From assembly GCF_055900595.2 (NCBI RefSeq), contig NZ_CM148325.1: a stretch of DNA of 64,000 nt; one strand, given 5' to 3'. Below the pieces are notes generated by a model. The model was given only the letters and a program-made list of their open reading frames with translations. It searched no databases and was not told where the DNA came from. The position numbers and the translations under genes were made by a program. Of this stretch, positions 1 to 59,217 are shown piece after piece. How positions within the stretch are numbered: the first letter of the stretch is position 1; each line of letters opens with the position of its first letter.

Positions 1-158
1 TAACCATTGGCTGCCAGGTAAAGACTGTTACGACCATTGCCACAGCCCAGATCCAGCGTTTTACCGGGTTTAACCACTTTCACCGCTTCCAGTACTTCAG
101 AGTGTGTGCGGGTTAATTCATACTTATCAGTAAAATAGTTTTCGTCACGAATGATCAT
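1..158 (-). CDS. tehB: Tellurite methyltransferase TehB, N-terminal part only (gene runs off the window start)
   Basis: Minus-strand translation from ATG at 156-158 reads [45 protein letters not shown]...; start overlaps the tehA stop (operon coupling). Not in ORF track because truncated. Confidence 0.85.
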
Positions 159-1147
159 TCTTTGTCCTCAGCTTTCATTAAAACGGCGCGCTCGGTTCTG
201 ATTAACAATTTCCCCTGCATCAGAAGCGCGAAAGTTCGGATGAGCAGTATTGCAATTATAAAATTGGTAAAGATAAACAGCGGCACCGCCAGGGTATGGA
301 AAAATCCATTATCGCTGCCACTCCCCAGATGCAAACCGGTGGTTGCCAGTGCAGATACGCCGAACGAGAAACTCCAGAATGAAGCATTAAATGGCTGGGA
401 GAGATACCATGGCATCAGACGTAGCATAAACAGCAGTTGCAGCAGCCCATAACCGAAAAGCATTTTCGCCAGCGTGTCACCCTCGCCGCCGTTGACGCTC
501 AGCCAGGCACTACAGGCCACCAGCGCAGGAGCGAGCTGAATGCCGAGTGATGTCCGCAGCGCCGTGGGTAATTCTCCCGAACTGCGCAGACGCTGCAAGA
601 TCACCGGTTCCAGGCTTAACCATGAGAAAACGCCTGCGCCTAAAAACACCAGACCGGCGTCGGTGTAGCCCAATGCACCACAGGCCATTGCGCTGATAAA
701 GTTGTTGGCAACTGTCGGCAGATACAGTCCAGGCGTGGTAGCTTCTTCAGGATGAGATCCGCGCCATAATCCCGCAGTTTGCCAGGCGGCATAAGCCAAC
801 TGAACCACGACACCAAAACTGAACAGGCATACCGCCAGTGGGCGAAACCACGGAACAAAACCAATCGCTACCAGCATCGTCGTTGCAGGAAACAAACTCA
901 CAAAACTGCTCATCACTGGATGGCGCACTTCCGCCAGCACGCTATGCGGAAAACGTATGAGTCGGGTAATAAATGCGCTAGTCAATAATCCCCAGATGAT
1001 CATCGCCAGAATCACTAGCCCATCCCCTAACCAGTGGCTGACCTGCCAAACCTGGCTGGCATAGCGCCAGGCAAATCCCATCCCTATCGTCCCCAACACA
1101 ATACCAAAGTAGCCTGCCGGCAAATTGAGCACTTTATCGCTCTGCAT
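155..1147 (-). CDS. tehA: Tellurite resistance / C4-dicarboxylate transporter family membrane protein TehA
   Basis: ORF 155..1159 (334 aa), multi-helix membrane protein matching TehA; likely start at internal Met ([15 protein letters not shown]) at 1147, alternative start 1159. Confidence 0.9.
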
Positions 1148-1270
1148 CTTCTTACTCATTTTGTTTAATTTATAAAGTATATTTTAAATGCATTTTATGG
1201 AATTTTCTCGAGCATAGCCAGAGCCGCAGAATTTGCTACGGTTATAGTAAGTCACCTGTGGGAAAACGCT

Positions 1271-2251
1271 ATGCGCAAATATCGTCTAAGTGAAGAACAG
1301 CGAGCCTTTAGTTATCAGGATGATGGCACTAAAAAAAGTGTGTTATTACGGCAAATTATCGCCATGAGCGATTTTAACGATGTGATAGCAGGAACCGCTG
1401 GCGGCTGGATCGATCGCGAAACGGTGTTAGCACAGGAAGGAAATTGCTGGATTTACGATCAGAATGCTATTGCGTTCGGCGGAACGGTGATTTCCGGTAA
1501 TACGCGTATCACCGGCACCAGCGTCCTTTGGGGAGAGGTTTACGCAACGGATAACGTCTGGATCGATAATAGTGAAGTCAGTCAGGGTGCATATATAAGT
1601 GACAGTGTCACCATTCGTGACTCATTAGTTTGCGGTCAATGTAGAATATTTGGTCACGCCTTAATTGATCAACATTCTATGATCGTCGCCGCGCAAGGCT
1701 TAACCTCCGACCATCAACTCCTGCTACAAATTTATGATCGCGCAAGGGTTAGCGCCTCGCGTATTGTCCACCAGGCACAAATTTATGGCGATGCCGTCGT
1801 CCGGTATGCTTTTATTGAACATCGCGCCGAAGTTTTTGATTTTGCCAGTATTGAAGGTAATGAAGAGAACAACGTCTGGCTATGCGATTGCGCTAAAGTC
1901 TACGGTCACGCGCAGGTGAAAGCTGGCATAGAAGAAGATGCCATTCCGACAATTCATTACAGTTCGCAGGTAGCGGAATATGCCATTGTGGAAGGTAATT
2001 GTGTGTTAAAACATCATGTCTTGATTGGCGGAAAGGCAGTGGTAAGTGGCGGACCGATTCTGCTCGACGAGCACGTTATAATACAAGGTGAGAGCTATAT
2101 AACAGGTGCGGTGATAATTGAAAACCATGTGGAGTTAACCGACCACGCCCTCGTTGAAGCCTTTGATGGCGACACGATTCATCTCCGTGGTCCAAAAGTC
2201 ATAAACGGCGAAGAGCGCATTACGCGAACGCCGCTGGCAGGGTTATTGTGA
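1271..2251 (+). CDS. ydcK: Hexapeptide-repeat protein YdcK
   Basis: 326 aa ORF with left-handed beta-helix style repeats; position divergent from tehA as in E. coli. Confidence 0.85.
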
Positions 2252-2782
2252 ATCGATAATACGCGCGTATAAGTTCACATCATCATAGGCATCATTCAGA
2301 AACTCAGCCTGTTTCAGGCAACCTTCAAGGATAAAACCATTGCGCAAAGCGACCTGGTTGCTTTGCGCATTATCCACCCGACATTTGATCACGAAGCGTC
2401 TAAGTTCACCAGACTGAGCGTAATGATGAATCAATGCCTGCAGCGCCTGAGAAATGATCCCCTGCCCCTGATGAGATTCGTCCAGCCAGTAGCCGATTTC
2501 AGCGGTTTTATTCAGTGGTTCAATACGATTAAACGAGATAACGCCGATAAGTTCATCTTCTTTGAAAATCATGAACATTTTGGCATAGCCGCGTTGATGC
2601 AACATTACATTGCCCTGCACCGTTTTTCGCGTGTCCTCTTCACTTTGAACAAACTGCGGCCAGTTAAGCGACTGTTGTAACCATGTTTTATTTTTACAGA
2701 TTAACTGATGAAGAGGTGTGACGTGACTTTCTGCAACAGCATGTAATTCTAGTGATTCGCTTACTTTTATCGTTTCTGCCAT
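2243..2782 (-). CDS. rimL: Ribosomal protein L7/L12 serine N-acetyltransferase RimL
   Basis: ORF 2243..2797; GNAT-fold sequence, probable start at MAETIKV (2782). Overlaps ydcK 3' end by 9 nt. Confidence 0.85.
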
Positions 2783-2844
2783 CTTATCTCCAGTCAATCC
2801 ATACCACTGTTAAAAAAGCCGCCTGGCTGGCGGCTTAGGAAAGT

Positions 2845-3069
2845 TTACACCTCTTTGACGCTCTCCTGCTGCAGGATTTTGAGCATCTCATCTTTTAACT
2901 GTAGCTTTTGTTTTTTCATGCGGACCACTTCCGCATTGTACCCTCGACCGTCGGAACCTTCCTTTCTGGCAATTTCATGATCAAGTTTATTGTGTTTATC
3001 GAACAAGGACATAAAGCGAGGATTTTCGTTTTTCAGACGGGATATTAAATCTCGGTATTCTGGAAACAT
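2845..3069 (-). CDS. ydcH: Small DUF465 family protein YdcH
   Basis: ORF 2845..3075, 74-76 aa, MFPEYRDLISRLKNENPRFMSLFDKHNKLDHEIARKEG... Confidence 0.8.
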   Translation of the reverse strand: MFPEYRDLISRLKNENPRFMSLFDKHNKLDHEIARKEGSDGRGYNAEVVRMKKQKLQLKDEMLKILQQESVKEV

Positions 3070-3208
3070 ACGCACTCCCTGTTAGTGGCTGACAAGGTGT
3101 ATCTGAAATACACACTATCAGATTACTCATTTAACTTAGGGAAAAATGCGAGCGGGATCGTGTTTAACCAGACGGCACCTCCCGAAGAAGGTGCCGAAGA
3201 AAAAACGA

Positions 3209-4864
3209 TTAACTCATCACGCGGTCGTCAACATACTGACGTTTATCCGGCGCTGGCGGGAAATACTGATACAGCCATGTTTCACTGATAGCGTCGCCCT
3301 GACAACGCAGATACATCCGCATATCGACCGGATCAGTGGAGTCCGAAGTCGGATACCAGTCAAACTGAATACGATAACCATCAATGGGTTCAATATAGAG
3401 AATTTCGATTTGCTTCGCTTCCCCACTGGAAAGCGTAATCACCGGCTCAATGCCTTTTGGTGCGGCAGCTTTCAGATCACCACCAACGAAATCGACGGCA
3501 AAACGACGCGCCCATTTTTCGGGATAGTGTTCACCAGGCGCCCAACCTTCCGGGAAACCGCCCATGCCGGTACGCGTTGCCATAACGCGCGCTAATGGGC
3601 AATGAACAGGCGGTTGCGCACTCCAGTACAGACGATACTGGAATGCAAACTCATCACCCGCTTTTACAGCTTTTTCTGGCTGCCAGAAGCAGACAATGTT
3701 ATCCAGCGTTTCGCCCGTTGTTGGGATTTCCATCAGGCCGATGGTGCCCTTACCCCACTTGTTACGCGGTTCCACCCACAGACTTGGGCGTTTGTTATAC
3801 CAGCCCATAATGTCCTGATAATGAGAGAAATCGCGATCCAGTTGCAATAAACCAAACCCTTTCGGGTTGTTGTCGGTGTAAGCATTGAACTGCAATTTTT
3901 GCGGATTATTCAGCGGACGGCAAATCCACTCGCCGTTGCCCCGCCACATGGACAGACGATCAGAGTCATGGATTTGCGGATGAATGGTGTCGCACATCCG
4001 ACGTTCATTAGTGCCGCAGCTGAACATGCTGGTCATCGGCGCAATGCCCAGCTGTTTAATGTCTTTGCGCGCATACAGGTGATTTTCCACATCCATAATC
4101 ACCTGACTTTTCTCACAATGGATAGTGAACTTATAGGCACCAGTAATGCTGGCGCTATCGAGCAACGCATAAACGGTAAAGGTGGTTGCCCCTGGTTTTA
4201 CCGTATCAAACCAGAAGGCGGTAAAGTCGGGGAACTCTTCTTTGCTGTCGGTGTAAGTGTCGATCGCCAGGCCGCGGGCCGACAAACCGTATTGATATGT
4301 GTCATCAACGGCGCGGAAATAACTCGCGCCGAGGAATGATACGACATCACGGCGCGCCAGTTCGGGGGCTTTAAACACGCGAAAACCGGCAAAACCGAGA
4401 TCGCTTTGCCCTTCTAATTGTTTGGTATCCACACCCGCATCGTTGTATTTGAACAACTCCGGGCGAAAGTGAATTTCACGCGCCAGATGTGTTGCTGGAT
4501 CTACAGAAAACATACGAACGCGGCGACGGAATCCCATTCCCATATGGAAGAACTGAGCGTCCAGTTGACGGTTCTCAACGTTATGCCAGAGCGATTTTTC
4601 GGCGTCGTATTGAATACTGTTATAAGCCTGCGGCGTCATTGTCGCCAGAGTGTCAGGTAACGGACGCGGCGCACCACGCCACGCGGTTTGCGCTAAGTCG
4701 TGCGCCATTGACTGTAGAATGGAGAAGTCAAAACGCTGGGTTTGCCCGTCGGCAATATCAGAATCTGCCGCGAATGCCGCCTGAGAAAAAAGAGAAGCAA
4801 TGCCGCTGGTACCGCACACGGCGGCCATAGCCATTGAACCTTTAATAAATCGTCTACGATCCAT
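3209..4864 (-). CDS. opgD: Glucans biosynthesis protein D (OpgD/MdoD), Tat-exported periplasmic protein
   Basis: 551 aa ORF with twin-arginine signal [32 protein letters not shown] and MdoG/MdoD family body. Confidence 0.92.
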
Positions 4865-5088
4865 ACCTGAAAGTGAGTCCTTCTGGTGTTGTGAATAGTC
4901 CCGCGCTGGTCGTTTTCAGCGGCAAGAAAGTGCTTATTTATGACCGCTCACTCTAGACAATATTTATTAATAATCCAATTGTTGAACTCAGAGAATATGC
5001 ATTAATCGGCAATTTTTTTATGTCGATGGGATGAGCCTGATTCGTTTGTAAAATCAGGCAAATTTTTGCAAAGGCAGATAGTCAAAAT

Positions 5089-6432
5089 TTAAAGCAAACC
5101 ACAGCGGCGTTTACTGCGTTCTTCCGCTTCCTGATAAAGCTGGAACTCATCAAAAACTGGGCATCCCAACGCATGTTCGAAAGCTTCGCGGCTGGCATTA
5201 CCGTGACTGCGTGCCTGCGTTTCATTACCCAGATTTGACTGGAAGATCCCCGCCGCGCTAACAGGCAAAAAATCTTCATAAGTAATGGGTTGTGCCACTA
5301 CCCAACCACGTTCAATTAAGGGTTGTGGATCGTCTCCGGGATGAATCGCCTGACGATGCGCCTCACCTGAAGGCGTCAAACGATATCGGAACCATGCCAA
5401 CCCTTGCTGACGCATTAAAAACTCACTGTCAGGAAAAGTGCGGAAGGTTTCCTGTAAATGCATTTGATGAGTGAGATTATCCTGCCCGGTTCCAGCGTTC
5501 CGCAGAAGATCATCATACATTTGTCGTCCTTTCGGCGTTAATGCCACGCCACGCTGCTCTATTTCACCAAAGCGCGCGGTATGCGTGCCCTGTTTCTGCC
5601 CCGCAAACAACACCTTCTCTTCCAGTGCTTTAAAGCTGGTCTGGCGTAGTAAAATCGGTACCTCGCGGCGCGGCGGCCCTTCGATCAGAATTTTGGGTTC
5701 AATTCCGCATTCAGGCATCATCGACTGCACACGGTCAATATCCAGCGTACGTGGCGTCAGGTGGTTGATATGGCACCCAGGAAAACAGACCACATCAGCA
5801 ATCAGCCGATGTTCGTTGTGCAACGCACGATAGGTTTCTTCATCAACCGTTGCTGACTGGTGCCAGCGAAACGTTTCCAGGGCTTCCTGCACAAACTCCT
5901 GTGCCTGTGTTTCGTTAAAACCGCCCCGCTGCTCATACTCCTCTAACAGTTGTCGACAACGTGGGGTGAAGATATCGCGCTGACGCAGAATCTCCGCCGC
6001 TTTCTGGCGCAAAAATTCGTTCTCGATAAGCTCAAGACGGAGTAATGAGGTAAAAACGCGGAAGGGATTACGCGCCAGAGAAGCATCATCAATGGGCCGA
6101 AATGCTGTGGAATGTACCGGCACGCCCGCCTGCGAGAGATCGTAATAGCTCACCGGGTACATCCCCATAATGGCAAACATCCGCCGAAGAGTAGCAAGCT
6201 CTTGTGCAGTCCCAACGCGAATTGCCCCATGACGTTCAACATTCAGTCGCGCCAGCTCGTCTGCATTTACCATTTTTTCGTGCAGTTGAGGATTGTTTTC
6301 CAGCACAGCCAGATTCACATCAGCTACCAGTTCCAGCAGCGTGCCGTACTGCGGAACTTCTTGCTGGTACATGGCTGACATTGCCTGCGAAAACTGTTCC
6401 CGAATCTCATCCGCCGTGATGCTGTTCGCCAT
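5089..6432 (-). CDS. ydcJ: DUF1338 family putative metalloenzyme YdcJ
   Basis: 447 aa ORF, conserved position between opgD and ydcI. Confidence 0.85.
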   Translation of the reverse strand: MANSITADEIREQFSQAMSAMYQQEVPQYGTLLELVADVNLAVLENNPQLHEKMVNADELARLNVERHGAIRVGTAQELATLRRMFAIMGMYPVSYYDLSQAGVPVHSTAFRPIDDASLARNPFRVFTSLLRLELIENEFLRQKAAEILRQRDIFTPRCRQLLEEYEQRGGFNETQAQEFVQEALETFRWHQSATVDEETYRALHNEHRLIADVVCFPGCHINHLTPRTLDIDRVQSMMPECGIEPKILIEGPPRREVPILLRQTSFKALEEKVLFAGQKQGTHTARFGEIEQRGVALTPKGRQMYDDLLRNAGTGQDNLTHQMHLQETFRTFPDSEFLMRQQGLAWFRYRLTPSGEAHRQAIHPGDDPQPLIERGWVVAQPITYEDFLPVSAAGIFQSNLGNETQARSHGNASREAFEHALGCPVFDEFQLYQEAEERSKRRCGLL

Positions 6433-6648
6433 AATGTCTGCCTCCAGTGGTCAGTAATCTGGAGTGTAGGTAACCGCATTCACTCTGGCGGGAAGAATTT
6501 GCAAACTGTGATCTCGCCGCGAAAACATCAATATTATCCATTTCGCTGTAACACAATTGCTTTATTTGTTAATAATATTTTGCAACTAAGTTATCATAAT
6601 CAAACAACTTCACTTGTCAGCGACACTGCTTCGTTTTTAACATCGCTT

Positions 6649-7572
6649 ATGGAAAAAAATAGTCTGTTTAGTCAGCGCATCCGTTTGCGCCACCTTCATA
6701 CATTCGTAGCTGTCGCACAACAAGGAACTTTGGGGCGCGCGGCTGAAACCCTTAATTTGAGTCAACCTGCGCTCTCTAAAACATTGAATGAACTGGAGCA
6801 GCTGACGGGCGCTCGCTTGTTTGAGCGTGGTCGTCAGGGGGCGCAACTTACCTTACCCGGCGAACAATTTTTAACACATGCAGTCAGAGTTCTTGACGCT
6901 ATTAACACTGCCGGACAGTCGCTTCATCGTAAAGAAGGTCTTAACAATGATGTCGTCAGGGTAGGTGCATTACCTACCGCGGCGCTGGGAATATTACCTT
7001 CGGTTATAGGTCAGTTTCATCAGCAACAAAAAGAGACGACCTTGCAAGTTGCGACAATGAGTAACCCTATGATTCTGGCGGGTTTGAAGACTGGCGAAAT
7101 CGATATCGGCATTGGTCGGATGTCAGATCCTGAACTGATGACCGGGCTTAATTATGAACTGCTGTTTCTTGAATCGCTGAAGCTGGTCGTCCGCCCTAAT
7201 CACCCGCTACTTCAGGAGAACGTAACGCTAAGCCGGGTGCTGGAATGGCCGGTTGTTGTATCACCAGAAGGCACTGCGCCACGCCAGCATTCAGATGCAT
7301 TAGTGCAGAGCCAGGGCTGTAAAATTCCTTCGGGCTGTATCGAAACACTGTCTGCTTCGCTATCTCGTCAACTTACGGTTGAATACGACTACGTGTGGTT
7401 TGTCCCTTCTGGCGCTGTAAAAGACGACCTGCGTCATGCCACGCTGGTGGCCCTGCCTGTTCCGGGTCATGGTGCAGGCGAACCGATTGGAATACTGACC
7501 CGCGTAGATGCGACGTTCTCTTCTGGTTGCCAGTTGATGATTAACGCTATTCGAAAATCAATGCCGTTCTGA
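6649..7572 (+). CDS. ydcI: LysR-family transcriptional regulator YdcI
   Basis: ORF track 6499..7572 has an implausible N-terminal extension; canonical start MEKNSLFSQRIRLRHLHTFVAVAQQGTLGRAAETLNLSQPALSKTL (HTH) at 6649. Confidence 0.88.
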   Translation: MEKNSLFSQRIRLRHLHTFVAVAQQGTLGRAAETLNLSQPALSKTLNELEQLTGARLFERGRQGAQLTLPGEQFLTHAVRVLDAINTAGQSLHRKEGLNNDVVRVGALPTAALGILPSVIGQFHQQQKETTLQVATMSNPMILAGLKTGEIDIGIGRMSDPELMTGLNYELLFLESLKLVVRPNHPLLQENVTLSRVLEWPVVVSPEGTAPRQHSDALVQSQGCKIPSGCIETLSASLSRQLTVEYDYVWFVPSGAVKDDLRHATLVALPVPGHGAGEPIGILTRVDATFSSGCQLMINAIRKSMPF

Positions 7573-7576
7573 AAGG

Positions 7577-7603
7577 TGAAGGGATCTGTCGATCCCTCCT
7601 TTA
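7577..7603. terminator. Hairpin between convergent ydcI and trg (gggatc-tgtc-gatccc, T-rich flank)
   Basis: Inverted repeat with T-rich 3' flank on plus strand, lying between two convergent stop codons. Confidence 0.45.
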
Positions 7604-7609
7604 ACATTT

Positions 7610-9250
7610 TCACACCGTAGCGAAACTAACTGGTTCACCAGCTCCGCGAGGTTCTGCCGACACAGAATGTTTGTTCAGACGGAATACGTCCACCGCCTCA
7701 GTTAATCGTGCAGCCTGTTCTTCAAGGGACACCGCCGCCGCTGAGGCCTCTTCTACCAGAGAAGCATTCTGTTGCGTCACCTTATCCATTTCGGAAATCG
7801 CCTGGCTCACCTGCGTTATGCCTCTGCTTTGCTCATCCGAGGCGGCGGCAATCTCCTGCATGATATGTGTGACACTCGCGACGGCATCAACAATAGTGCT
7901 CATGGTTTTCCCTGCCGTTGCTACCTCATCCGATCCCAGGTCAATTAATCTGACTGATTCACTGATCAAGCCTTCAATCTCTTTTGCCGCCTGAGCGCTG
8001 CGGCTTGCGAGTGTCCGTACTTCGCTGGCGACAACGGCAAATCCACGTCCTTGCTCACCCGCTCGCGCGGCTTCAACGGCAGCATTCAGTGCCAGAATAT
8101 TCGTCTGGAAAGCAATACTGTTGATGACGGAAGTGATCTCGGAAATTTTCTTCGAACTCGTGGAGATAGCGCCCATCGTTTTTACTACACCGGAAACCGT
8201 CTGCCCGCCATCGCTGGCTTTAATAGAAGCCTCTTGCGCCAGTTTGCTGGCATGATGCGCGTTATCCGCATTCTGTTTCACCGTTGCAGTGAGTTGCTCC
8301 ATGCTGGCGGCAGTTTGTTCGATTGCCGCCGCTTGTTCTTCGGTGCGAGATGACAGGTCCGCATTGCCAGCGGAAATTTCGCTGGTGCCACGATAAATCT
8401 CTTCCGCGCCCTGTCGAACGGTCCCTACAGTCATCCCCAGTGAATGCTGCATTTGCTGTAAATGATGACTTAAGCGACCGATTTCATTACGACCCGCCGG
8501 TTCATCATTCATCGTCAGATCGCCACTGGCAATTTTTTCAATCCGTTGTGCGGCATGTTGCAGTGGACGAATGACGATCCGACGTAGCACCATAAATGTT
8601 ATCAGCGTCATGACCACGGCAAGCACAAACGCGCCAATCATAAACATCACACCCAGGCGGGTACGCTGATGGGCCTGTTCCGCCAGTTGGTTGGCTCTGG
8701 TGCTACGTATCTTAACGGCTTTGTTCAAAATATCGGTATAAGCATTATCCAGCGGTCGGATCTGCTCACTTTCATGATTGATAATCGCCTCAAACATGCC
8801 ATTTTTGGCATATTTCAGCATGGGTTGGATACCCGTGATATAAGCCTGGAAACGTTGATTTAATTCAGCCTCGAGAGCTTCATCAGCAGGTGTTTTCACC
8901 GGCCGACTCCGGTAAGCCCGATAACCTTGCTGCGACTGTTTAATCTCCGATTCGGCTTGCGCAATATTTCGCTTCATTGCTTCCATTTCCGCAATACGAC
9001 TCGCGGCCCCGGCCTGAATCATATTGATCCGGGCCGAACGCAAAAAATCTGAGCTGTTCGCTAACCCGGTCCGAACCTCAATCTCTGCAGTCACATCACG
9101 CTGATCGCGATCGGCCTTCCAGAGGAAATAGCCAGCCAGGGCTGAACTCAAGGCAAACAGAAGTAAGATACCGCCAAGAATGCAGGCAAATAACGGAACC
9201 AGCCTGATGTGATGCAAAAAACCTAATCGCTGTGAGGGAGTTGTATTCAT
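7610..9250 (-). CDS. trg: Methyl-accepting chemotaxis protein III (ribose/galactose sensor) Trg
   Basis: 546 aa; two TM segments, HAMP, methyl-accepting signalling domain with conserved motifs ([21 protein letters not shown]). Confidence 0.93.
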
Positions 9251-9524
9251 TACCGTTGTCTCTCGTCCAGGTTTACTCCTGATAGAAAGTCATCGGCACT
9301 TGACGGTAATTACTTATGACCAAAAACCTCTTTGCGTCACATTTTTACAACAATTATGGCAGAGAAGAATAATGCCATTGGAATGAAGAGAGTAACGAAC
9401 GGCTAAACCGAATGACGAAAAATTCTGGAAAACAGCACGCAATTTCGTCAAGTGATTATTTTCGTCCCTAAGGAAACCTCATAGGATGCCTGCGGGTGCC
9501 TGAGACTTTCTGTTTTCAGGCTAA

Positions 9525-9581
9525 CCGGGAATCAGAAAGACGAAGGCCCCGACCGATATTTCTATCAACCGAGGCCAACGA

Positions 9582-9592
<11 letters not shown>
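9525..9592 (-). ncRNA. sokB: SokB antisense RNA of the hokB/mokB type I toxin-antitoxin locus (approximate extent)
   Basis: Minus-strand promoter-like TTGCCG-17 nt-TAACAT reading antisense across the mokB start; ends are approximate and unverified. Confidence 0.3.
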
Positions 9593-9789
<197 letters not shown>

Positions 9790-9860
9790 GGGCAAGCGCG
9801 GGGATTTTCCCCGCGCATCTGACTAGCAGATTCATTTTCTCATGGCACCCCTTTTACACT

Positions 9861-10034
9861 TCAGTTAGTGCATGTTTTTTTCGATGCACTAATAGAACCA
9901 TCATTACAGACAAATTTGCCACCTGCCGTACAGTGTGAGATCCCCCCTTTCGAACCAGAACAGGGTTTGCGCCCGGCATCGGCATAAAAGGAAACAAGCG
10001 CTCCCATAACCAAGATAAGTGCCAATTTTTTCAT
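9861..10034 (-). CDS. ydcA: Small lipoprotein-like protein YdcA
   Basis: 57 aa MKKLALILVMGALVSFYADAGRKPCSGSKGGISHCTAGGKFVCNDGSISASKKTCTN with SD upstream; below ORF-track cutoff. Confidence 0.75.
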   Translation of the reverse strand: MKKLALILVMGALVSFYADAGRKPCSGSKGGISHCTAGGKFVCNDGSISASKKTCTN

Positions 10035-10204
10035 ATAACCTCCATGGTTTATCGAATCTTATGTTCGATTTGAACGTTATACGCTGGTTTATTTTGATAC
10101 CGTTGATGAGATCAAAGATCGGGTGAATTGATTAAAGATAAGCCAGATGGACATATGGACAAGGATTATGGTTTTATTTGTCATACAAATAAATATAATA
10201 GGCG

Positions 10205-10269
10205 CTTCCGATGTAGGCCCGTATTCTTCGCCTGTACCACGGGTCGGTTTTAGTACAGGCGTTTTCTTT
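10205..10269 (+). ncRNA. rydC: RydC small regulatory RNA
   Basis: Approx. 65 nt: CTTCCGATGTAGGCCCGTATTCTTCGCCTGTACCACGGGTCGGTTTTAGTACAGGCG + TTTTCTTT, pseudoknot-capable hairpin plus U-tract, convergent on the cybB stop as in E. coli. Confidence 0.8.
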
Positions 10270-10278
10270 AAAGATCCT

Positions 10279-10809
10279 TCAGGAACGTTTACGCGGCATC
10301 ATGCGTAGAAGTGTGTTGTCCTTCCAGAAATAGTGGTGTGCCAGTGCAGCCGCAGCGTGCAACCCGATGACAAAATATCCCAGATTCGCCAGCGTCTCAT
10401 GCCACCACTTTAAGCTATCAACCCGTTCGAAATTGGCCTCTGCTGCATAAGGCATTGTCATACCAAACGCAAACCACGGGTTGCCCCGGTTATACATCAT
10501 CACCAAACCAATCACTGGCAGCGCAATAAACAGGAGATAGATCACCAAATGTCCCAAATGTGCCAGTCCCGTCATCATCGGTTTTGGTTTAGGTACAATC
10601 GGCGGAGTCGGGTTTTTAAGCCTTAACAAAAGACGAACAACCATCAGCACGAGAATTGAGATGCCACAGGAAACATGAATCATGTTGATGAGCGGCCGAT
10701 CGCTACGTGGGAAGAAACCACGAAACTCCATTGCGCAATACGCTGCGATAACCAACAAAAAGACCAGCCAGTGAATGCTGATTTGTAACCTTGAGTATTT
10801 ATTTTCCAT
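10279..10809 (-). CDS. cybB: Cytochrome b561 CybB
   Basis: ORF 10279..10845; canonical start MENKYSRLQISIHWLVFLLVIAAYCAMEF at 10809; four-TM di-haem cytochrome b561 pattern. Confidence 0.92.
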   Translation of the reverse strand: MENKYSRLQISIHWLVFLLVIAAYCAMEFRGFFPRSDRPLINMIHVSCGISILVLMVVRLLLRLKNPTPPIVPKPKPMMTGLAHLGHLVIYLLFIALPVIGLVMMYNRGNPWFAFGMTMPYAAEANFERVDSLKWWHETLANLGYFVIGLHAAAALAHHYFWKDNTLLRMMPRKRS

Positions 10810-10997
10810 AACATTTCCTGCTTTAAAACAATTTGCCGTTAACATAACGAGCTTTTCTTAAAATTTCATTAAATATTGTTCACCCGTTTTCAGTACGTTA
10901 CGTTCCACGGCAAGAATGTAGATTGCCCATCCCGCCATCCTGGTCTAAGCCTGGAAAGGATCAATTTTCATCCGAACGTTCCTGACAGGAGAAGACC

Positions 10998-11999
10998 ATG
11001 AGTAAAGTTGGTATTAACGGTTTTGGTCGTATCGGTCGACTGGTGTTGCGTCGATTACTTGAAGTCAAAAGTAACATAGACATTGTCGCTATTAATGATC
11101 TCACTTCCCCAAAAATTCTCGCCTACCTGCTGAAACATGATTCAAACTACGGACCGTTCCCCTGGAGCGTTGATTTTACGGAAGATTCACTTATCGTTGA
11201 TGGAAAAAGTATCGCGGTTTACGCCGAAAAAGAGGCTAAAAATATTCCATGGAAAGCGAAAGGCGCAGAAATCATTGTCGAATGTACTGGCTTTTATACC
11301 TCCGCCGAGAAATCGCAGGCGCACCTTGATGCTGGTGCGAAGAAGGTGTTGATTTCCGCCCCTGCCGGTGAAATGAAAACCATCGTTTATAACGTCAATG
11401 ACGACACACTGGATAGCAACGACACCATTGTTTCCGTGGCGTCATGCACCACTAACTGTCTTGCACCGATGGCCAAAGCCTTGCACGACAGTTTCGGAAT
11501 AGAAGTCGGCACGATGACGACCATTCATGCCTATACTGGCACCCAGTCACTGGTGGATGGCCCGCGAGGTAAAGATCTACGCGCTTCACGTGCAGCGGCA
11601 GAAAATATCATTCCCCACACTACAGGCGCGGCAAAAGCCATTGGTCTGGTGATCCCAGAACTGAGCGGCAAACTGAAAGGTCATGCGCAACGCGTACCCG
11701 TGAAAACAGGTTCGGTGACTGAACTGGTGTCTATTCTTGGAAAAAAAGTGACTGCCGAAGAGGTGAACAACGCGCTTAAAAACGCGACAAACAATAACGA
11801 GTCATTTGGTTATACCGATGAAGAAATAGTCTCTTCTGATATCATTGGCAGCCATTTCGGGTCGGTGTTTGATGCCACGCAAACCGAAATTACCACCGTG
11901 GGCGATTTACAGCTGGTGAAAACGGTCGCCTGGTATGATAACGAATATGGCTTCGTCACGCAGCTTATTCGCACCCTCGAAAAATTCGCTAAACTCTGA
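10998..11999 (+). CDS. gapC: Glyceraldehyde-3-phosphate dehydrogenase C, intact reading frame
   Basis: 333 aa uninterrupted ORF with GAPDH hallmarks (NGFGRIGR Rossmann motif, catalytic [10 protein letters not shown]). Confidence 0.9.
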
Positions 12000-13480: not shown

Positions 13481-13673
13481 GGGAGACTCCTGTGATTAAT
13501 GTGTGTATTTGGTAAATTATTTGTTAATTAATATCAATCATCATAGAGACAGCATCTTGAAAGGACAAATCTGTGAAGAGCTTCATAAAAAGAAGGGTAA
13601 AAGGAATAAAAGGCAGAAAAAAAAGTAAGGAGTCATGCCCGTTTGCAAACAGTTGTTCTCAAACGGGCAATTT

Positions 13674-43792: not shown

Positions 43793-43821
43793 ATGCTCTG
43801 GATAAGGATAATCCAATTCTA

Positions 43822-43930
43822 AAAAAAAGCCCGGACGACTGTTCGGGCTTGTCTTTTTATATGTTGGAAAATCAGTGGCAATGCAATGGCCCAACAGAAA
43901 ATAAAATCTGTGACAATAAAGGCATATAAC
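43822..43930 (-). ncRNA. micC: MicC small RNA (represses ompC)
   Basis: Minus-strand GTTATATGCCTTTATTGTCACAGATTTTATTTTCTGTTGGGCC...AGCCCGAACAGTCGTCCGGGCTTTTTTTT; divergent from ompN. Confidence 0.85.
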
Positions 43931-44157
43931 CCGCGCAGAATAACGTATAGCAAATTAAAAGTATAATTTTTATTTTGTATGTATTATCTTCGATACATTC
44001 ACCAGGCTTATTATCATTTCAGAGGAATTATTTGATTAAGGTTTTACTTAAGGCGTAACAAATGATATTTATCGGCTAACTGAACTTCTCCTTTAGGATG
44101 TTTTCACTCCCCGAAATGGGGATAAAAGGCAAATAAAATAACTAAAGGATTTATTCA

Positions 44158-45324: not shown

Positions 45325-45350
45325 TGCTTATTCTTCCTCCTTTGATCTAA

Positions 45351-45866
<516 letters not shown>

Positions 45867-46041: not shown

Positions 46042-46977
46042 ATGTCGCAAAATCAAGAAATTAGTAAGAAAGAACAATACAACCTGAACAAATTACAAAA
46101 ACGTCTGCGTCGTAACGTGGGCGAAGCCATTGCTGACTTCAATATGATTGAAGAAGGCGATCGCATCATGGTTTGCCTCTCCGGGGGTAAAGACAGCTAT
46201 ACCATGCTGGAGATTCTGCGCAATTTGCAGCAAAGCGCTCCAATCAATTTTTCGCTGGTGGCTGTTAACCTCGATCAAAAGCAACCGGGCTTCCCGGAAC
46301 ACGTTCTGCCCGAGTATCTTGAAAAGCTGGGCATTGAGTACAAGATTGTGGAAGAGAACACTTACGGTATCGTGAAAGAGAAGATTCCGGAGGGCAAAAC
46401 CACTTGCTCACTGTGTTCTCGTCTTCGTCGCGGAATTCTTTACCGTACCGCAACGGAACTGGGAGCGACGAAGATCGCGCTGGGTCACCATCGTGACGAT
46501 ATCCTGCAAACGCTGTTCTTAAATATGTTCTATGGCGGCAAGATGAAAGGTATGCCACCGAAACTGATGAGCGATGATGGCAAACATATTGTGATTCGTC
46601 CGCTGGCCTACTGTCGCGAGAAAGATATTCAACGCTTTGCCGATGCAAAAGCGTTCCCGATTATTCCGTGCAACCTGTGCGGTTCACAGCCTAACCTGCA
46701 ACGTCAGGTGATTGCTGACATGTTGCGTGACTGGGATAAACGTTATCCGGGGCGTATCGAGACGATGTTCAGCGCGATGCAGAATGTGGTGCCGTCGCAT
46801 CTGTGCGATACCAACCTGTTCGATTTCAAAGGCATTACCCACGGTTCTGAAGTGGTTAACGGGGGTGATCTGGCGTTTGATCGCGAAGAGATCCCTCTAC
46901 AACCGGCGGGTTGGCAGCCTGAAGAAGATGAAAATCAGTTGGATGAGTTACGACTGAATGTGGTTGAAGTGAAATAA
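46042..46977 (+). CDS. ttcA: tRNA 2-thiocytidine(32) synthetase TtcA
   Basis: 311 aa, PP-loop SGGKDS and CxxC Fe-S motifs. Confidence 0.93.
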
Positions 46978-48509: not shown

Positions 48510-48683
48510 TTAGCAAGCGCGTATCCTCGCAGATCTACGCTCACGATGCGACAATTTAATCGGTTCTTCATCGGGTGGTGGGTCAGGCATGGGTTGCGGG
48601 CGAGGGATTGGATCGGGCACTGGAACAGGATCGCCAGGAATCGGTTCAGGGACAGGAATTTGCAAATAAATGAGTGTCGTCAT
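48510..48683 (-). CDS. Candidate proline-rich small protein (57 codons) downstream of FnrS
   Basis: MTTLIYLQIPVPEPIPGDPVPVPDPIPRPQPMPDPPPDEEPIKLSHRERRSARIRAC; strong SD GGAGGG 5 nt upstream of ATG; below ORF-track cutoff; identity unverified. Confidence 0.4.
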   Translation of the reverse strand: MTTLIYLQIPVPEPIPGDPVPVPDPIPRPQPMPDPPPDEEPIKLSHRERRSARIRAC

Positions 48684-48736: not shown

Positions 48737-48862
48737 AGGCAAAAAAAAGCCGACTCATCAAAGTCGGCGTCGTACGAATCAATTGTGCTATGCAGTAATT
48801 CAAAAAAGGAAGTAAGACAATATGGAGCGCAACGCCCATCGCTTGACGTTGCATTCACCTGC
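48737..48862 (-). ncRNA. fnrS: FnrS small RNA (FNR-activated anaerobic regulator)
   Basis: Minus-strand GCAGGTGAATGCAACGTCAAGCGATGGGCGTTGCGCTCCATATTGTCTTACTTCC...GCCGACTTTGATGAGTCGGCTTTTTTTT with intrinsic terminator. Confidence 0.88.
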
Positions 48863-48897
48863 GAGAGAGATATTGCCCTGAATGGGTAGAGAGTTTA

Positions 48898-48911
48898 TTG
48901 ACTTCGCTCAA
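48898..48911. promoter_or_regulatory. FNR binding site (class II, centred near -41.5) of the fnrS promoter
   Basis: TTGACTTCGCTCAA, close to TTGAT-N4-ATCAA, about 42 bp upstream of the FnrS 5' end. Confidence 0.75.
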
Positions 48912-48957
48912 ACTTTGCGGCGTTTTTGTATACAGATAGTAGGGAAAATTGCTGTTG

Positions 48958-49962
<1,005 letters not shown>

Positions 49963-52239: not shown

Positions 52240-52334
52240 ACCGGCGCAGAGGAGACCATGCCGGATTTAAGACGCGGATGCACTGCTGTGTGTACTGTAG
52301 AGTCTGGCGGATGTCGACAGACTCTATTTTTTTA
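52240..52334 (+). ncRNA. mcaS: McaS (IsrA) small RNA
   Basis: ACCGGCGCAGAGGAGACCATGCCGGATTTAAGACGCGGATGCACTGCTGTGTGTACTGTAGAGTCTGGCGGATGTCGACAGACTCTATTTTTTTAT with terminator hairpin and U-tract, between smrA and abgR. Confidence 0.85.
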
Positions 52335-52341
52335 TGCAGTT

Positions 52342-53250
52342 TTAACTTTGCAGATAGCCGCATTCTCGCCGAAATTGCGTGATTAATGACGCGGTCAGTG
52401 GTGTCTGGCGACTATCACGCCGCTGAATCAAATAATAGGCCGCTTTCGGTAAAATTTCGCTAACCGGCAACATCACCAGCCCCTGTCCGTGCAAGGGATC
52501 GCAGCCCATTTCTTCAGGTAGTATGCTGAGAAAATCGCTTTTTGCCACCAGACTGATACAGGCTGAAAACGTCTCGCAGACTACGCCGACCTGTGGCGTT
52601 TGCGCCTGATCGTCAAGCAATTCACTCAACTGTTTGTAGTAGCTGCCGTGTGGCGTCGGCATTGTCCAGCTGTAGTCCAGTAACTGTTTGATCGAACGGG
52701 CACCAATGGCGGGATGTCCCGGGCGGCAAAAGATCGCGAATTGCTTTTCCAGTAATTTCTCAAAAGTAAATTCGTGGTCGTAGGGTCCCTGATAATAGGT
52801 ATTGATGGTGAAATCCAGTTCTCCCTGTCGCAATTCATTAATCATCGACACCAGTTGCCCTTCCATAATGCGTACTTTTACCTGCGGATGCTGCTGATGA
52901 AAACGAGATATGACAGCTGGCATCAGACTGCGGGAAATACTGGCCCCCATGCCGATATTAATTTGCCCTGCCAGTTGCCCTTGTCGTTGGCGAATATCCT
53001 CTTGCGCTGCGCGCAGCTCTTCAAGAATAAGACTGGCGTGCTGATAAAAACTTTCACCGGCATCAGTTAACGTCACGCCTTTACTACGGCGAAAAAAGAG
53101 TTGCGCCGCTAACCCTTCTTCCAGCTCCTGAATAGATTTACTCAGTGCCGGTTGCGACATATTCAACATGCGGCTCGCTCCGCGAATGCTGCCCTGACGA
53201 GCCACTTCAACAAAAGCCCGAATTTGATGAATTTTTACCTGAAAAGCCAT
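52342..53250 (-). CDS. abgR: LysR-family regulator AbgR
   Basis: 302 aa, N-terminal HTH, divergent from abgABT. Confidence 0.92.
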   Translation of the reverse strand: MAFQVKIHQIRAFVEVARQGSIRGASRMLNMSQPALSKSIQELEEGLAAQLFFRRSKGVTLTDAGESFYQHASLILEELRAAQEDIRQRQGQLAGQINIGMGASISRSLMPAVISRFHQQHPQVKVRIMEGQLVSMINELRQGELDFTINTYYQGPYDHEFTFEKLLEKQFAIFCRPGHPAIGARSIKQLLDYSWTMPTPHGSYYKQLSELLDDQAQTPQVGVVCETFSACISLVAKSDFLSILPEEMGCDPLHGQGLVMLPVSEILPKAAYYLIQRRDSRQTPLTASLITQFRRECGYLQS

Positions 53251-58316: not shown

Positions 58317-58340
58317 ACCCTTAACAACTTAAGGGTTTTC
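58317..58340 (+). terminator. Intrinsic terminator of abgT-ogt
   Basis: CCCTTAA-caac-TTAAGGG followed by TTTT. Confidence 0.7.
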
Positions 58341-58431
58341 AAATAGATAGACATATATTTACATCTAATATCGGAATTCTCTGCTGTTAAGGTTTGCTTA
58401 GACTTACTTGCTCCCTAAAAAGATGTTAAAA

Positions 58432-58445
58432 TTGACAAATATCAA
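58432..58445. promoter_or_regulatory. FNR autoregulatory operator at the fnr promoter
   Basis: Perfect FNR palindrome TTGACAAATATCAA 20 bp upstream of the fnr ATG. Confidence 0.8.
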
Positions 58446-58464: not shown

Positions 58465-59217
58465 ATGATCCCGGAAAAGCGAATTATACGGCGCATTCAG
58501 TCTGGCGGTTGTGCTATCCATTGCCAGGATTGCAGCATCAGCCAGCTTTGCATCCCGTTCACACTCAACGAACATGAGCTTGATCAGCTTGATAATATCA
58601 TTGAGCGAAAGAAGCCTATTCAGAAAGGCCAGACGCTGTTTAAGGCTGGTGATGAACTTAAATCGCTTTATGCCATCCGCTCCGGTACGATTAAAAGTTA
58701 TACCATCACTGAGCAAGGCGACGAGCAAATCACTGGTTTCCATTTAGCAGGCGACCTGGTGGGATTTGATGCCATCGGCAGTGGTCATCACCCAAGCTTC
58801 GCGCAGGCGCTGGAAACCTCGATGGTATGTGAAATCCCGTTCGAAACGCTGGACGATTTGTCCGGTAAAATGCCGAATCTGCGTCAGCAGATGATGCGTC
58901 TGATGAGCGGTGAAATCAAAGGCGATCAGGACATGATCCTGCTGTTGTCGAAGAAAAATGCCGAGGAGCGTCTGGCTGCATTCATCTACAACCTGTCCCG
59001 TCGTTTTGCCCAACGCGGCTTCTCCCCTCGTGAATTCCGCCTGACGATGACTCGTGGCGATATCGGTAACTATCTGGGCCTGACGGTAGAAACCATCAGC
59101 CGTCTGCTGGGTCGCTTCCAGAAAAGCGGTATGCTGGCAGTCAAAGGTAAATACATCACCATCGAAAATAACGATGCGCTGGCCCAGCTTGCTGGTCATA
59201 CGCGTAACGTTGCCTGA
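58465..59217 (+). CDS. fnr: Fumarate and nitrate reduction regulator FNR (CRP/FNR family, Fe-S oxygen sensor)
   Basis: ORF 58408..59217; canonical start [29 protein letters not shown] with N-terminal Cys cluster; C-terminal HTH. Confidence 0.96.

What the first reader, a model, noticed from the sequence alone, without database searches (positions are those of the whole stretch)
48737..48911. FnrS with near-consensus FNR site, in the same window as fnr itself with its perfect autoregulatory palindrome
FnrS has TTGACTTCGCTCAA centred about 41 bp upstream of its 5' end, and fnr (58465-59217) has TTGACAAATATCAA just upstream of its start. Both regulator and sRNA target are within 10 kb, with four sRNAs (RydC, MicC, FnrS, McaS) in 45 kb. 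This is established biology, noted as a dense regulatory neighbourhood, not novelty.
Basis: established knowledge. Interest (0 to 1): 0.2.

Follow-up and report, generated by a model that had tools for sequence, protein, structure and literature searches.

The report
FnrS sRNA and its FNR-dependent promoter
This is the well-known E. coli oxygen-sensing regulator gene fnr and, 9.6 kb away, the small RNA FnrS that it switches on without oxygen; everything matches published work, so the finding is correct but ordinary.

Summary
The finding is correct and already known. The window is E. coli chromosome. FnrS lies at 48741-48862 on the minus strand (Rfam RF01796, 134.8 bits) and is 100% identical to K-12 fnrS. 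Its FNR box, TTGAGCGAAGTCAA in the sense orientation, is at 48898-48911. It is centred at -42.5, not -41, which is the Class II activator position and the value published by Myers et al. 2013.

The fnr gene is at 58465-59217 and encodes a protein identical to K-12 FNR. Its box TTGACAAATATCAA (58432-58445) is a 9/10 match to the consensus, not a perfect palindrome. It overlaps the published transcription start (-0.5), which gives autorepression.

Both boxes pass the published PWM threshold. In my leave-out PWM they rank 2nd and 3rd in the window.

Motif score alone is not significant: about 1.5 sites of FnrS strength are expected per shuffled 64 kb. The decisive evidence is position and conservation. 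In 113 of 114 Enterobacterales fnrS loci the best box sits at -41.5 to -43.5, while the flanking sequence is free to vary.

The fnr-fnrS proximity is seen only in Escherichia, Salmonella and Citrobacter and looks incidental. The four sRNAs (plus a Sok RNA) are confirmed. Nothing here is novel.

The parts
48741..48862 (-). FnrS small RNA gene (122 nt): 5' hairpin, conserved C/U-rich single-stranded linker, second hairpin, terminator
   Evidence: Rfam RF01796 at 134.8 bits, full-length. It is 100% identical to annotated K-12 fnrS b4699. Predicted fold. In a 96-sequence alignment, nt 1-56 are almost invariant.
48741..48768 (-). Rho-independent terminator of FnrS: 8-bp GC-rich stem at 48749-48768 followed by U8 at 48741-48748
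   Evidence: Terminator scan. Two stem pairs show compensatory changes across species: A-U/G-C in 41 sequences and C-G/U-A in 28 sequences.
48870..48875 (-). -10 element of the fnrS promoter, CAATAT at -13..-8 (conserved as GCAnnnT, -14..-8)
   Evidence: Column information is 1.75-1.93 bits at -14, -13, -12 and -8 across 114 species. No -35 consensus was found, as expected for an activator-dependent Class II promoter.
48898..48911 (-). FNR binding site of the fnrS promoter, TTGAGCGAAGTCAA, centred at -42.5 (Class II position, overlapping -35)
   Evidence: Sequence. Leave-out PWM score 13.0, rank 3 in the window. The identical K-12 site is listed with PatSer 13.21, ln p -11.69 and a ChIP-seq peak, and at -42.5 in Table 1. 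A box lies at -41.5 to -43.5 in 113/114 species.
48923..48927 (-). Conserved A-tract (AAAAA, -65..-61) upstream of the FNR box; function not established (a candidate alpha-CTD or IHF contact is my inference)
   Evidence: Column information is 0.8-1.56 bits at -64..-61, while neighbouring columns are below 0.5 bits. Myers Table S6 notes IHF ChIP-chip enrichment overlapping the fnrS site.
48958..49941 (-). zntB, the gene directly upstream of fnrS on the same strand; its stop codon lies 95 bp before the FnrS 5' end, with no terminator in between
   Evidence: ORF list, annotation, terminator scan. zntB was detected next to fnrS in 114 of 118 loci, directly upstream on the same strand in nearly all of them.
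48510..48683 (-). ynaL, a 57-aa proline-rich small protein gene starting 58 nt after the FnrS terminator
   Evidence: ORF and annotation. The protein is identical to the YnaL detected by epitope tagging in PMC6001520.
58465..59217 (+). fnr, the O2-sensing [4Fe-4S] transcription factor FNR (250 aa)
   Evidence: 250/250 identity to K-12 FNR. NF008365 at 529.9 bits against a cut-off of 228. Cys16, Cys20, Cys23, Cys29 and Cys122 are visible in the alignment.
58432..58445 (+). FNR box in the fnr promoter, TTGACAAATATCAA (9/10 to consensus), overlapping the transcription start (-0.5): the autorepression operator
   Evidence: Sequence. PWM score 14.65, rank 2 in the window. K-12 site: PatSer 13.66, ln p -12.16, ChIP-seq peak. 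Position -0.5 and 'directly repressed' in Myers Table 1. The box and everything from about -22 to the ATG are invariant in E. coli, Citrobacter and Salmonella, while sequence further upstream diverges.
58424..58432 (+). Inferred extended -10 of the fnr promoter (TGtTAAAAT; hexamer at -12..-7 if +1 = 58439)
   Evidence: Read directly from the sequence, placing +1 from the published -0.5 centre. The consensus scan did not call it because the -35 is weak. This is an inference.
45342..45355 (+). Third FNR box in the window, TTAATTTAGATCAA (on the minus strand), 83.5 bp upstream of the uspF ATG (uspF CDS 45432-45866, +)
   Evidence: Highest PWM score in the window, 16.25. The identical K-12 site has PatSer 14.68, ln p -13.22 and a ChIP-seq peak. 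uspF position.
52240..52335 (+). McaS sRNA
   Evidence: Rfam RF00115, 117 bits.
43813..43933 (-). MicC sRNA
   Evidence: Rfam RF00121, 125.3 bits.
10205..10268 (+). RydC sRNA
   Evidence: Rfam RF00505, 90.5 bits.

Best explanation
This is the canonical FNR-FnrS circuit of E. coli.

- Without oxygen, the FNR dimer carrying its [4Fe-4S] cluster, encoded at 58465-59217, binds the box TTGAGCGAAGTCAA centred at -42.5 of the fnrS promoter. There it replaces a missing -35 element and recruits sigma70 RNA polymerase (Class II activation).
- This produces the 122-nt, terminator-ended sRNA FnrS (48741-48862, minus strand). With Hfq, FnrS uses its conserved single-stranded C/U-rich region to pair with and silence mRNAs of functions not needed anaerobically.
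- The same protein binds TTGACAAATATCAA across the transcription start of its own gene and blocks polymerase, which gives negative autoregulation.

Shown here: the identity of all parts, the box scores, the box positions, and deep conservation of box position.
Taken from published work on identical K-12 sequence: FNR occupancy, anaerobic sigma70 recruitment at fnrS and loss at fnr, and the start sites.
From established knowledge, not tested here: Hfq dependence and the FnrS target list.
For: - RNA identity: Rfam 134.8 bits. 122/122 identity to K-12 fnrS, with only 1 substitution between the box and +1.
- Terminator: present, with compensatory changes across species.
- fnrS box: above the published threshold and under a ChIP-seq peak. 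Position -42.5 (my count; Table 1), inside the -41.5 +/- 4 Class II range that Myers reports for 19 of 23 activated promoters.
- Independent PWM: ranks the uspF, fnr and fnrS boxes 1-3 in the window.
- Phylogenetic footprint: 113/114 fnrS loci, from Escherichia to Yersinia, Serratia, Erwinia, Edwardsiella, Photorhabdus and Arsenophonus, have their best box at -41.5 to -43.5. TTGA/TCAA and the -10 carry 1.4-1.9 bits, while the sequence between them carries about 0-0.5 bits.
- Promoter type: no sigma70 consensus promoter at fnrS, consistent with activator dependence.
- Occupancy: sigma70 rises from 54 to 11,803 anaerobically at fnrS and falls from 2,645 to 1,172 at fnr.
- FNR protein: identical to K-12.
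- fnr box: at -0.5 and classed as directly repressed. Invariant across three genera.
Against: - Motif score alone is weak evidence. Sites scoring 13.0 or more arise 1.5 times per dinucleotide-shuffled 64 kb, and 75% of shuffles have at least one.
- No experiment exists for this particular strain. Occupancy and start sites are inferred from sequence identity with K-12.
- The primary promoter-mapping papers (Durand & Storz 2010, Boysen et al. 2010, Mettert & Kiley 2007) are not in the held library. The positions I cite come second-hand from Myers et al. 2013.
- One species (Enterobacter sp. EA-1, L119) has a 1-bp deletion in the box spacer, so the box is not universal.
Confidence: 0.96

Rival explanations
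1. The TTGA-N6-TCAA sequence upstream of FnrS is a chance match, or merely a -35-like element. FnrS would then be transcribed from a constitutive or otherwise regulated promoter, independent of FNR.
For: A box of this strength is expected about 1.5 times per 64 kb by chance. It matches only 8/10 of the TTGAT-N4-ATCAA consensus.
Against: The box is kept at the same position in 113/114 species while flanking bases vary. The chance of a site scoring 13.0 or more centred within +/-4 bp of -41.5 of a given start is about 9 x 1.5/64,000, or 2e-4. Published data show a ChIP-seq peak and a 200-fold anaerobic gain of sigma70 on the identical K-12 sequence.
Confidence: 0.01
2. The box is used mainly by another CRP/FNR-family protein (for example CRP) rather than FNR.
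For: CRP and FNR recognise related inverted repeats. From memory, the original FnrS paper reported smaller effects of CRP and ArcA on FnrS levels; I could not check this because the paper is not held.
Against: Both half-sites carry the FNR-type TTGA/TCAA core rather than CRP's GTGA/TCAC, and the spacing is N4 between 5-mers as for FNR. The FNR-specific ChIP-seq peak is absent from the delta-fnr control set, which the authors removed.
Confidence: 0.01
3. The closeness of fnr, fnrS and the other sRNAs has a function of its own, such as a co-regulated chromosomal domain or local delivery of FNR to the fnrS promoter.
For: fnr, fnrS and uspF all carry ChIP-validated FNR boxes within 13.1 kb in this strain. 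fnr lies 5-8 kb from fnrS in Salmonella and Citrobacter too.
Against: Of 7 fnrS loci with at least 10.5 kb of upstream flank, only Salmonella has fnr. Serratia, Edwardsiella, Erwinia, Dickeya, Izhakiella and Enterobacter sp. Ag1 do not. In K-12 the 23-kb Rac prophage sits between ttcA and uspF without known consequence. By my own rough estimate of about 100 known sRNAs in 4.6 Mb, 4-5 sRNAs in 42 kb is expected in one or two windows per genome. RydC, MicC and McaS have no high-scoring FNR box nearby.
Confidence: 0.03
4. FnrS is also, or alternatively, produced as the 3' end of zntB read-through transcripts, in the manner of a 3'-UTR-type sRNA that shares the upstream gene's terminator. This would give an FNR-independent route to FnrS.
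For: No terminator lies between the zntB stop (48958) and the FnrS start. zntB is directly upstream on the same strand in nearly all of the 114 loci (of 118) where it was detected, including Y. pestis.
Against: Sigma70 occupancy at fnrS is almost nil aerobically, and the anaerobic signal is huge and centred on fnrS itself. FnrS 5' ends coincide with a conserved -10/+1. No paper in the library links zntB transcription to FnrS. This would be an addition to the main mechanism, not a replacement.
Confidence: 0.12

Closest known systems
E. coli K-12 fnrS (b4699; Rfam RF01796), described by Durand & Storz 2010 and Boysen et al. 2010
   Same: The RNA is 122/122 identical. The FNR box, the -10 and the spacing are the same, and so are the neighbours zntB, ynaL and dbpA.
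   Different: There is one substitution at promoter position -1 (C here, T in K-12) and a few further upstream of -65. The chromosomal context lacks the Rac prophage, so uspF is 3 kb from fnrS rather than about 26 kb.
Class II FNR-activated promoters (e.g. narK, nirB, nrfA at -41.5; ydhY at -42.5)
   Same: A single FNR box overlaps the -35 region, there is no -35 consensus, and sigma70 is recruited only anaerobically.
   Different: The centre is at -42.5, one bp further upstream than the modal -41.5. The box is weaker (8/10, with G at both inner half-site positions) than narK or nirB (10/10). The product is a non-coding RNA.
The negatively autoregulated fnr promoter (Mettert & Kiley 2007, as cited by Myers et al. 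2013)
   Same: The upstream region differs from K-12 at only one position (about 99% identity). The box is centred at -0.5, and anaerobic sigma70 occupancy is lower.
   Different: Nothing of note. From memory, a second upstream site at -103.5 was described. The sequence at that position here (TTAAGGGTTTTCAA, 58329-58342) scores only -1.0 with my PWM, and only its TCAA is conserved in Salmonella and Citrobacter.
Other transcription factor / sRNA pairs that extend a regulon to repression (Fur-RyhB, OxyR-OxyS, sigmaE-MicA/RybB)
   Same: The logic is the same: an activator-only or sensor regulator gains a repressing arm through an Hfq-dependent sRNA (established knowledge; indirect FnrS-mediated repression of 11 operons).
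   Different: The regulator, signal and targets differ, and there is no sequence relationship.

Membership tests
FnrS sRNA (Rfam RF01796) | Covariance-model score at or above the curated gathering score, over the full model length | tested here: met
   134.8 bits against 60, model positions 1-119 of 119, E = 4.4e-24.
FnrS sRNA (Rfam RF01796) | Orthology with the experimentally described K-12 fnrS, including synteny | tested here: met
   122/122 identity. Same zntB-fnrS-ynaL-dbpA order.
FnrS sRNA (Rfam RF01796) | Rho-independent terminator and conserved single-stranded pairing region | tested here: met
   Terminator found, with compensatory pairs. Alignment columns up to about 56 (UCCAUAUUGUCUUACUUCC...) are almost invariant in 96 sequences and are unpaired in the predicted fold.
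FnrS sRNA (Rfam RF01796) | Anaerobic, FNR-dependent expression and Hfq-dependent repression of targets | not testable with these tools
   Published for K-12 only: sigma70 occupancy 54 to 11,803 and an FNR ChIP peak. Hfq and the targets are from established knowledge.
FNR binding site, Class II activating | TTGAT-N4-ATCAA-type inverted repeat scoring above a calibrated PWM threshold | tested here: met
   The identical sequence is listed at PatSer 13.21, ln p -11.69, against a threshold of -10.75. My leave-out PWM gives 13.0, rank 3 in the window and inside the training range of 11.6-20.6.
FNR binding site, Class II activating | Centre near -41.5 (+/-4) relative to the transcription start | tested here: met
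   -42.5 relative to the annotated 5' end, and the same value in Myers Table 1. The start site itself was not remapped here.
FNR binding site, Class II activating | Conservation of box and position in orthologous promoters | tested here: met
   109 loci at -42.5, 3 at -41.5 and 1 at -43.5, out of 114. Information peaks fall on TTGA/TCAA only.
FNR binding site, Class II activating | In vivo or in vitro occupancy by FNR | not testable with these tools
   A ChIP-seq peak is published for the identical K-12 sequence. There are no data for this strain.
FNR protein (NCBIfam NF008365) | Score above the curated cut-off; N-terminal Cys cluster plus Cys122 for the [4Fe-4S] cluster | tested here: met
   529.9 bits against 228. 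100% identical to K-12 FNR, and C16, C20, C23, C29 and C122 can be read.
Negatively autoregulated fnr promoter | FNR box overlapping the transcription start or -10 | tested here: met
   The box at 58432-58445 is in the same place as in K-12, where it is centred at -0.5. It abuts the inferred TAAAAT -10.
   The reverse complement of TTGACAAATATCAA is TTGATATTTGTCAA, so the half-sites are TTGAC and TTGAT. It has one mismatch to the consensus.

The most novel reading that the evidence does not exclude
fnrS behaves as a '3'-UTR-type' sRNA of zntB.

- Across Enterobacterales, fnrS sits about 95 bp after the zntB stop codon on the same strand, with no terminator in between.
- zntB transcripts would therefore end at the FnrS terminator and carry FnrS.
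- This could give an FNR-independent (for example zinc- or growth-linked) source of FnrS by processing, or couple zntB mRNA fate to FnrS.
- Related and also not excluded: the conserved A-tract at -65..-61 could be a functional alpha-CTD or IHF contact that tunes FNR activation.
Probability: 0.12. Interest if true: 0.3.

Novelty: already known. Interest (0 to 1): 0.05.

Why it matters
It matters only as a correct annotation. The window carries the master anaerobic regulator, its repressing sRNA arm and a third FNR-bound promoter (uspF), all identical at the boxes to the well-studied K-12 versions. The cross-species footprint made here (113/114 species with the box at -42.5 +/- 1) is a clean confirmation of a textbook Class II promoter, not a discovery. 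Two small by-products are inexpensive leads rather than findings: the fixed zntB-fnrS linkage with no terminator in between, and a conserved A-tract at about -62.

Tried and rejected
1. Simple consensus counting does not discriminate. TTGAT-N4-ATCAA with up to 2 mismatches gave 58 hits against 42 expected. TTGA-N6-TCAA gave 4 against 1.9, with 12 of 100 shuffles doing as well. I replaced it with a PWM built from 60 published ChIP-positive sites, leaving out the three from this region.
2. PWM score alone is not significant in 64 kb. I therefore used position and conservation instead.
3. I could not read the primary promoter-mapping papers. PMC2941437, PMC2856277 and PMC1855857 are not held. I used Myers et al. 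2013 Table 1, S2 and S6.
4. The sigma70 consensus scanner found no promoter at fnrS, fnr or uspF. This is expected for fnrS. For fnr, I read the extended -10 by eye.
5. I tested whether FnrS might pair with the fnr mRNA and close a feedback loop. The duplex of the FnrS linker with the fnr translation-initiation region is -9.0 kcal/mol, rank 24 of 38 genes in the window, so there is no support. There was no positive control, so this is a weak negative.
6. The reported upstream fnr site at -103.5 (from memory), here TTAAGGGTTTTCAA at 58329-58342, scores -1.0 and is poorly conserved. I did not count it as a part.
7. I looked for conserved fnr-fnrS linkage and rejected it outside Escherichia, Salmonella and Citrobacter. 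The flanks were short for many loci.
8. FnrS folding energy is unremarkable (z = -1.67). The evidence for structure comes from the covariance model and from terminator covariation instead.

Full report
**What the window is.** A 1-kb query around the finding matches 5,393 of 5,426 complete E. coli genomes and is 100% identical to several of them, for example NZ_CP098223. The whole window is 99.96% identical to that record, except that it lacks the record's IS150 and IS200 copies. Relative to K-12 the window is inverted. The gene order here is ompN-uspF-ttcA-dbpA-ynaL-[fnrS]-zntB-ynaN-dgcM-smrA-[mcaS]-abgR-abgABT-ogt-fnr-uspE.

**The observation.**
- Rfam finds FnrS at 48745-48862 (-) with 134.8 bits against a gathering score of 60. 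It also finds MicC (43813-43933, -), McaS (52240-52335, +), RydC (10205-10268, +) and a Sok antisense RNA (9494-9645, +).
- The K-12 annotation of fnrS (1409129-1409250, 122 nt) maps to 48741-48862 (-) with no mismatch.
- In the fnrS sense orientation the upstream box reads TTGAGCGAAGTCAA. It occupies 48898-48911, that is -49 to -36, centred at -42.5. Myers et al. 2013 list -42.5 for fnrS.
- fnr is at 58465-59217 (+). Its product is 250/250 identical to K-12 FNR and scores 529.9 bits on NF008365.
- TTGACAAATATCAA is at 58432-58445, centred 26.5 bp before the ATG. In the aligned upstream region (about 250 bp) it differs from K-12 at a single position.
- That box is not a perfect palindrome. The half-sites are TTGAC and TTGAT, so it has one mismatch to TTGAT-N4-ATCAA.

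**Is it more than chance?** By motif alone, no.
- The consensus with up to two mismatches occurs 58 times against 42 expected.
- The core TTGA-N6-TCAA occurs 4 times against 1.9 expected.
- I built a symmetric PWM from 60 ChIP-seq-positive FNR sites in Myers et al. Table S6, leaving out the three that belong to this region.
- The top three of about 64,000 positions are uspF (45342-45355, score 16.25), fnr (14.65) and fnrS (13.0).
- Even so, dinucleotide shuffles of the window give 1.5 sites scoring 13.0 or more on average.
- The published PWM puts all three above its precision-recall threshold and under ChIP-seq peaks. The values are fnrS 13.21 (ln p -11.69), fnr 13.66 (-12.16) and uspF 14.68 (-13.22), against a threshold of -10.75.

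**What makes the fnrS box convincing.**
- A scan of one genome per species with a conserved FnrS pattern returned 120 loci. Of these, 114 are real fnrS loci with enough flank.
- In 109 of them the best PWM site within 150 bp upstream is centred at exactly -42.5. It is at -41.5 in three Yersinia loci and at -43.5 in one other locus.
- Only Enterobacter sp. EA-1 lacks it, through a 1-bp deletion in the spacer.
- Per-column information is 1.4-1.9 bits on TTGA (-49..-46) and TCAA (-39..-36), and 1.75-1.9 bits on the -10 (GCAnnnT, -14..-8). It is about 0-0.5 bits between them. This is a classical footprint.
- The chance of a site this strong falling within +/-4 bp of -41.5 of a given start is about 2e-4 (derived).
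- No sigma70 -35/-10 consensus pair exists there, as expected for a Class II activator-dependent promoter.
- Published sigma70 ChIP-seq signal at fnrS is 54 aerobically and 11,803 anaerobically.

**The RNA.**
- The predicted fold has a 5' hairpin, an unpaired C/U-rich linker, a second hairpin, and a GC-rich terminator followed by U8.
- In 96 distinct sequences, nt 1-56 are nearly invariant. The terminator stem shows compensatory A-U/G-C changes (41 sequences) and C-G/U-A changes (28 sequences).

**The fnr promoter.**
- Myers et al. place the box at -0.5 and class fnr as directly repressed.
- Sigma70 occupancy falls from 2,645 to 1,172 anaerobically.
- Placing +1 at 58439, the sequence TGtTAAAAT (58424-58432) reads as an extended -10 that abuts the box. 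This is my inference; the scanner did not call it.
- The box and everything from about -22 to the ATG are invariant in E. coli, Citrobacter braakii and Salmonella diarizonae, while the sequence further upstream diverges.

**Mechanism.**
- Anaerobic [4Fe-4S]-FNR activates fnrS from a Class II site.
- FnrS, with Hfq, represses mRNAs of aerobic functions. Eleven indirectly FNR-repressed operons are attributed to it.
- FNR also represses its own promoter by occluding the start site.
- The parts, scores, positions and conservation are shown here. Occupancy and start sites are published for identical K-12 sequence. Hfq dependence and the targets are established knowledge that I did not test.

**The 'dense neighbourhood'.**
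- The counts are right: four sRNAs in 42.1 kb plus Sok, and fnrS 9.6 kb from fnr.
- I find no sign of meaning in this. fnr lies near fnrS only in Escherichia, Citrobacter and Salmonella. Of seven other-genus loci with at least 10.5 kb of upstream flank, only Salmonella has it.
- The compactness here partly reflects the absence of the Rac prophage, which lies between ttcA and uspF in K-12. It also reflects the absence of the fea/tynA/paa block, where this lineage has an autotransporter gene (the K-12 order there is from memory).
- What is conserved is the linkage to zntB, which is directly upstream on the same strand in nearly all loci.
- A test for FnrS pairing with the fnr mRNA gave nothing: -9.0 kcal/mol, rank 24 of 38.

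**Verdict.** The finding is a correct identification of already-known biology, with two small errors (-41 and 'perfect palindrome') and one omission (the uspF box). Interest is low.

Noticed in passing
window 45342-45355 (uspF CDS 45432-45866, +): The best-scoring FNR box in the whole window (TTAATTTAGATCAA, PWM 16.25) lies 83.5 bp upstream of uspF. It is identical to a K-12 site with an FNR ChIP-seq peak (PatSer 14.68). Because Rac is absent here, three FNR-bound promoters sit within 13.1 kb.
   Followed up: partly
window 48862-48960 and loci L003-L122: fnrS is directly downstream of zntB on the same strand in nearly all of the 114 Enterobacterales loci (of 118) where zntB was detected. The window has no terminator-like hairpin between the zntB stop and the FnrS start, so the FnrS terminator probably also ends zntB transcripts. 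In Rahnella and Rouxiella, zntB is instead downstream on the opposite strand.
   Followed up: partly
window 48923-48927 (-65..-61 of fnrS): An A-tract upstream of the FNR box is conserved across 114 species (0.8-1.56 bits) although its neighbours are not. Myers Table S6 reports IHF ChIP-chip enrichment overlapping this site. It could be an alpha-CTD or IHF contact; this is untested.
   Followed up: partly
L119:5100-5190 (Enterobacter sp. EA-1, CP025776.1): This is the only fnrS locus without an FNR box at the usual place. The sequence reads TTGCGCCAGTCAA, a 1-bp deletion in the spacer, although the -10 and the RNA are intact. Its zntB is also unusually divergent (54% identity).
   Followed up: no
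window 48510-48683 (-): ynaL, a 57-aa proline-rich small protein gene with a strong GGAGG ribosome-binding site, starts 58 nt after the FnrS terminator. The protein is identical to the YnaL detected experimentally (PMC6001520). tblastn finds it in only 10 of the 118 loci. Whether it is fed by read-through from the fnrS promoter is unknown.
   Followed up: partly
window 46265-46278 (inside ttcA) and 13524-13537 (upstream of aldA): Two further FNR-like boxes correspond to K-12 sites that pass the published PWM threshold but have no ChIP-seq peak ('silent' sites in Myers Table S6). The aldA one differs by one base from K-12 (TTGATATTAATTAA here, TTGATGTTAATTAA in K-12).
   Followed up: partly
window about 46.7-45.4 kb (ttcA/uspF junction) and about 28.7-34.2 kb: The Rac prophage is absent between ttcA and uspF. 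A 5.5-kb autotransporter gene lies between ydbL and pdxI, where K-12 (from memory) carries feaR/feaB/tynA and the paa operon. This shortens the RydC-MicC distance to 33.6 kb.
   Followed up: partly
window 9567-9569 and 2812-2817, compared with NZ_CP098223.1: The window is 99.96% identical to NZ_CP098223.1 but lacks that record's IS150 (between hokB and trg) and IS200 (between ydcH and rimL). abgR (52342-53250, -) is intact here, whereas it is annotated as a pseudogene with an internal stop in that record.
   Followed up: yes
L102:5354-5382 (Salmonella enterica subsp. diarizonae): There is a 13-bp tandem duplication (GACCTATGATGCA GACCTATGATCCC) at the fnr start codon. It creates a second, out-of-frame ATG just upstream. 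This could be real or an assembly artefact.
   Followed up: no
window 9494-9789: A hokB/Sok type I toxin-antitoxin locus (Rfam sok, 111.5 bits) lies next to RydC.
   Followed up: partly
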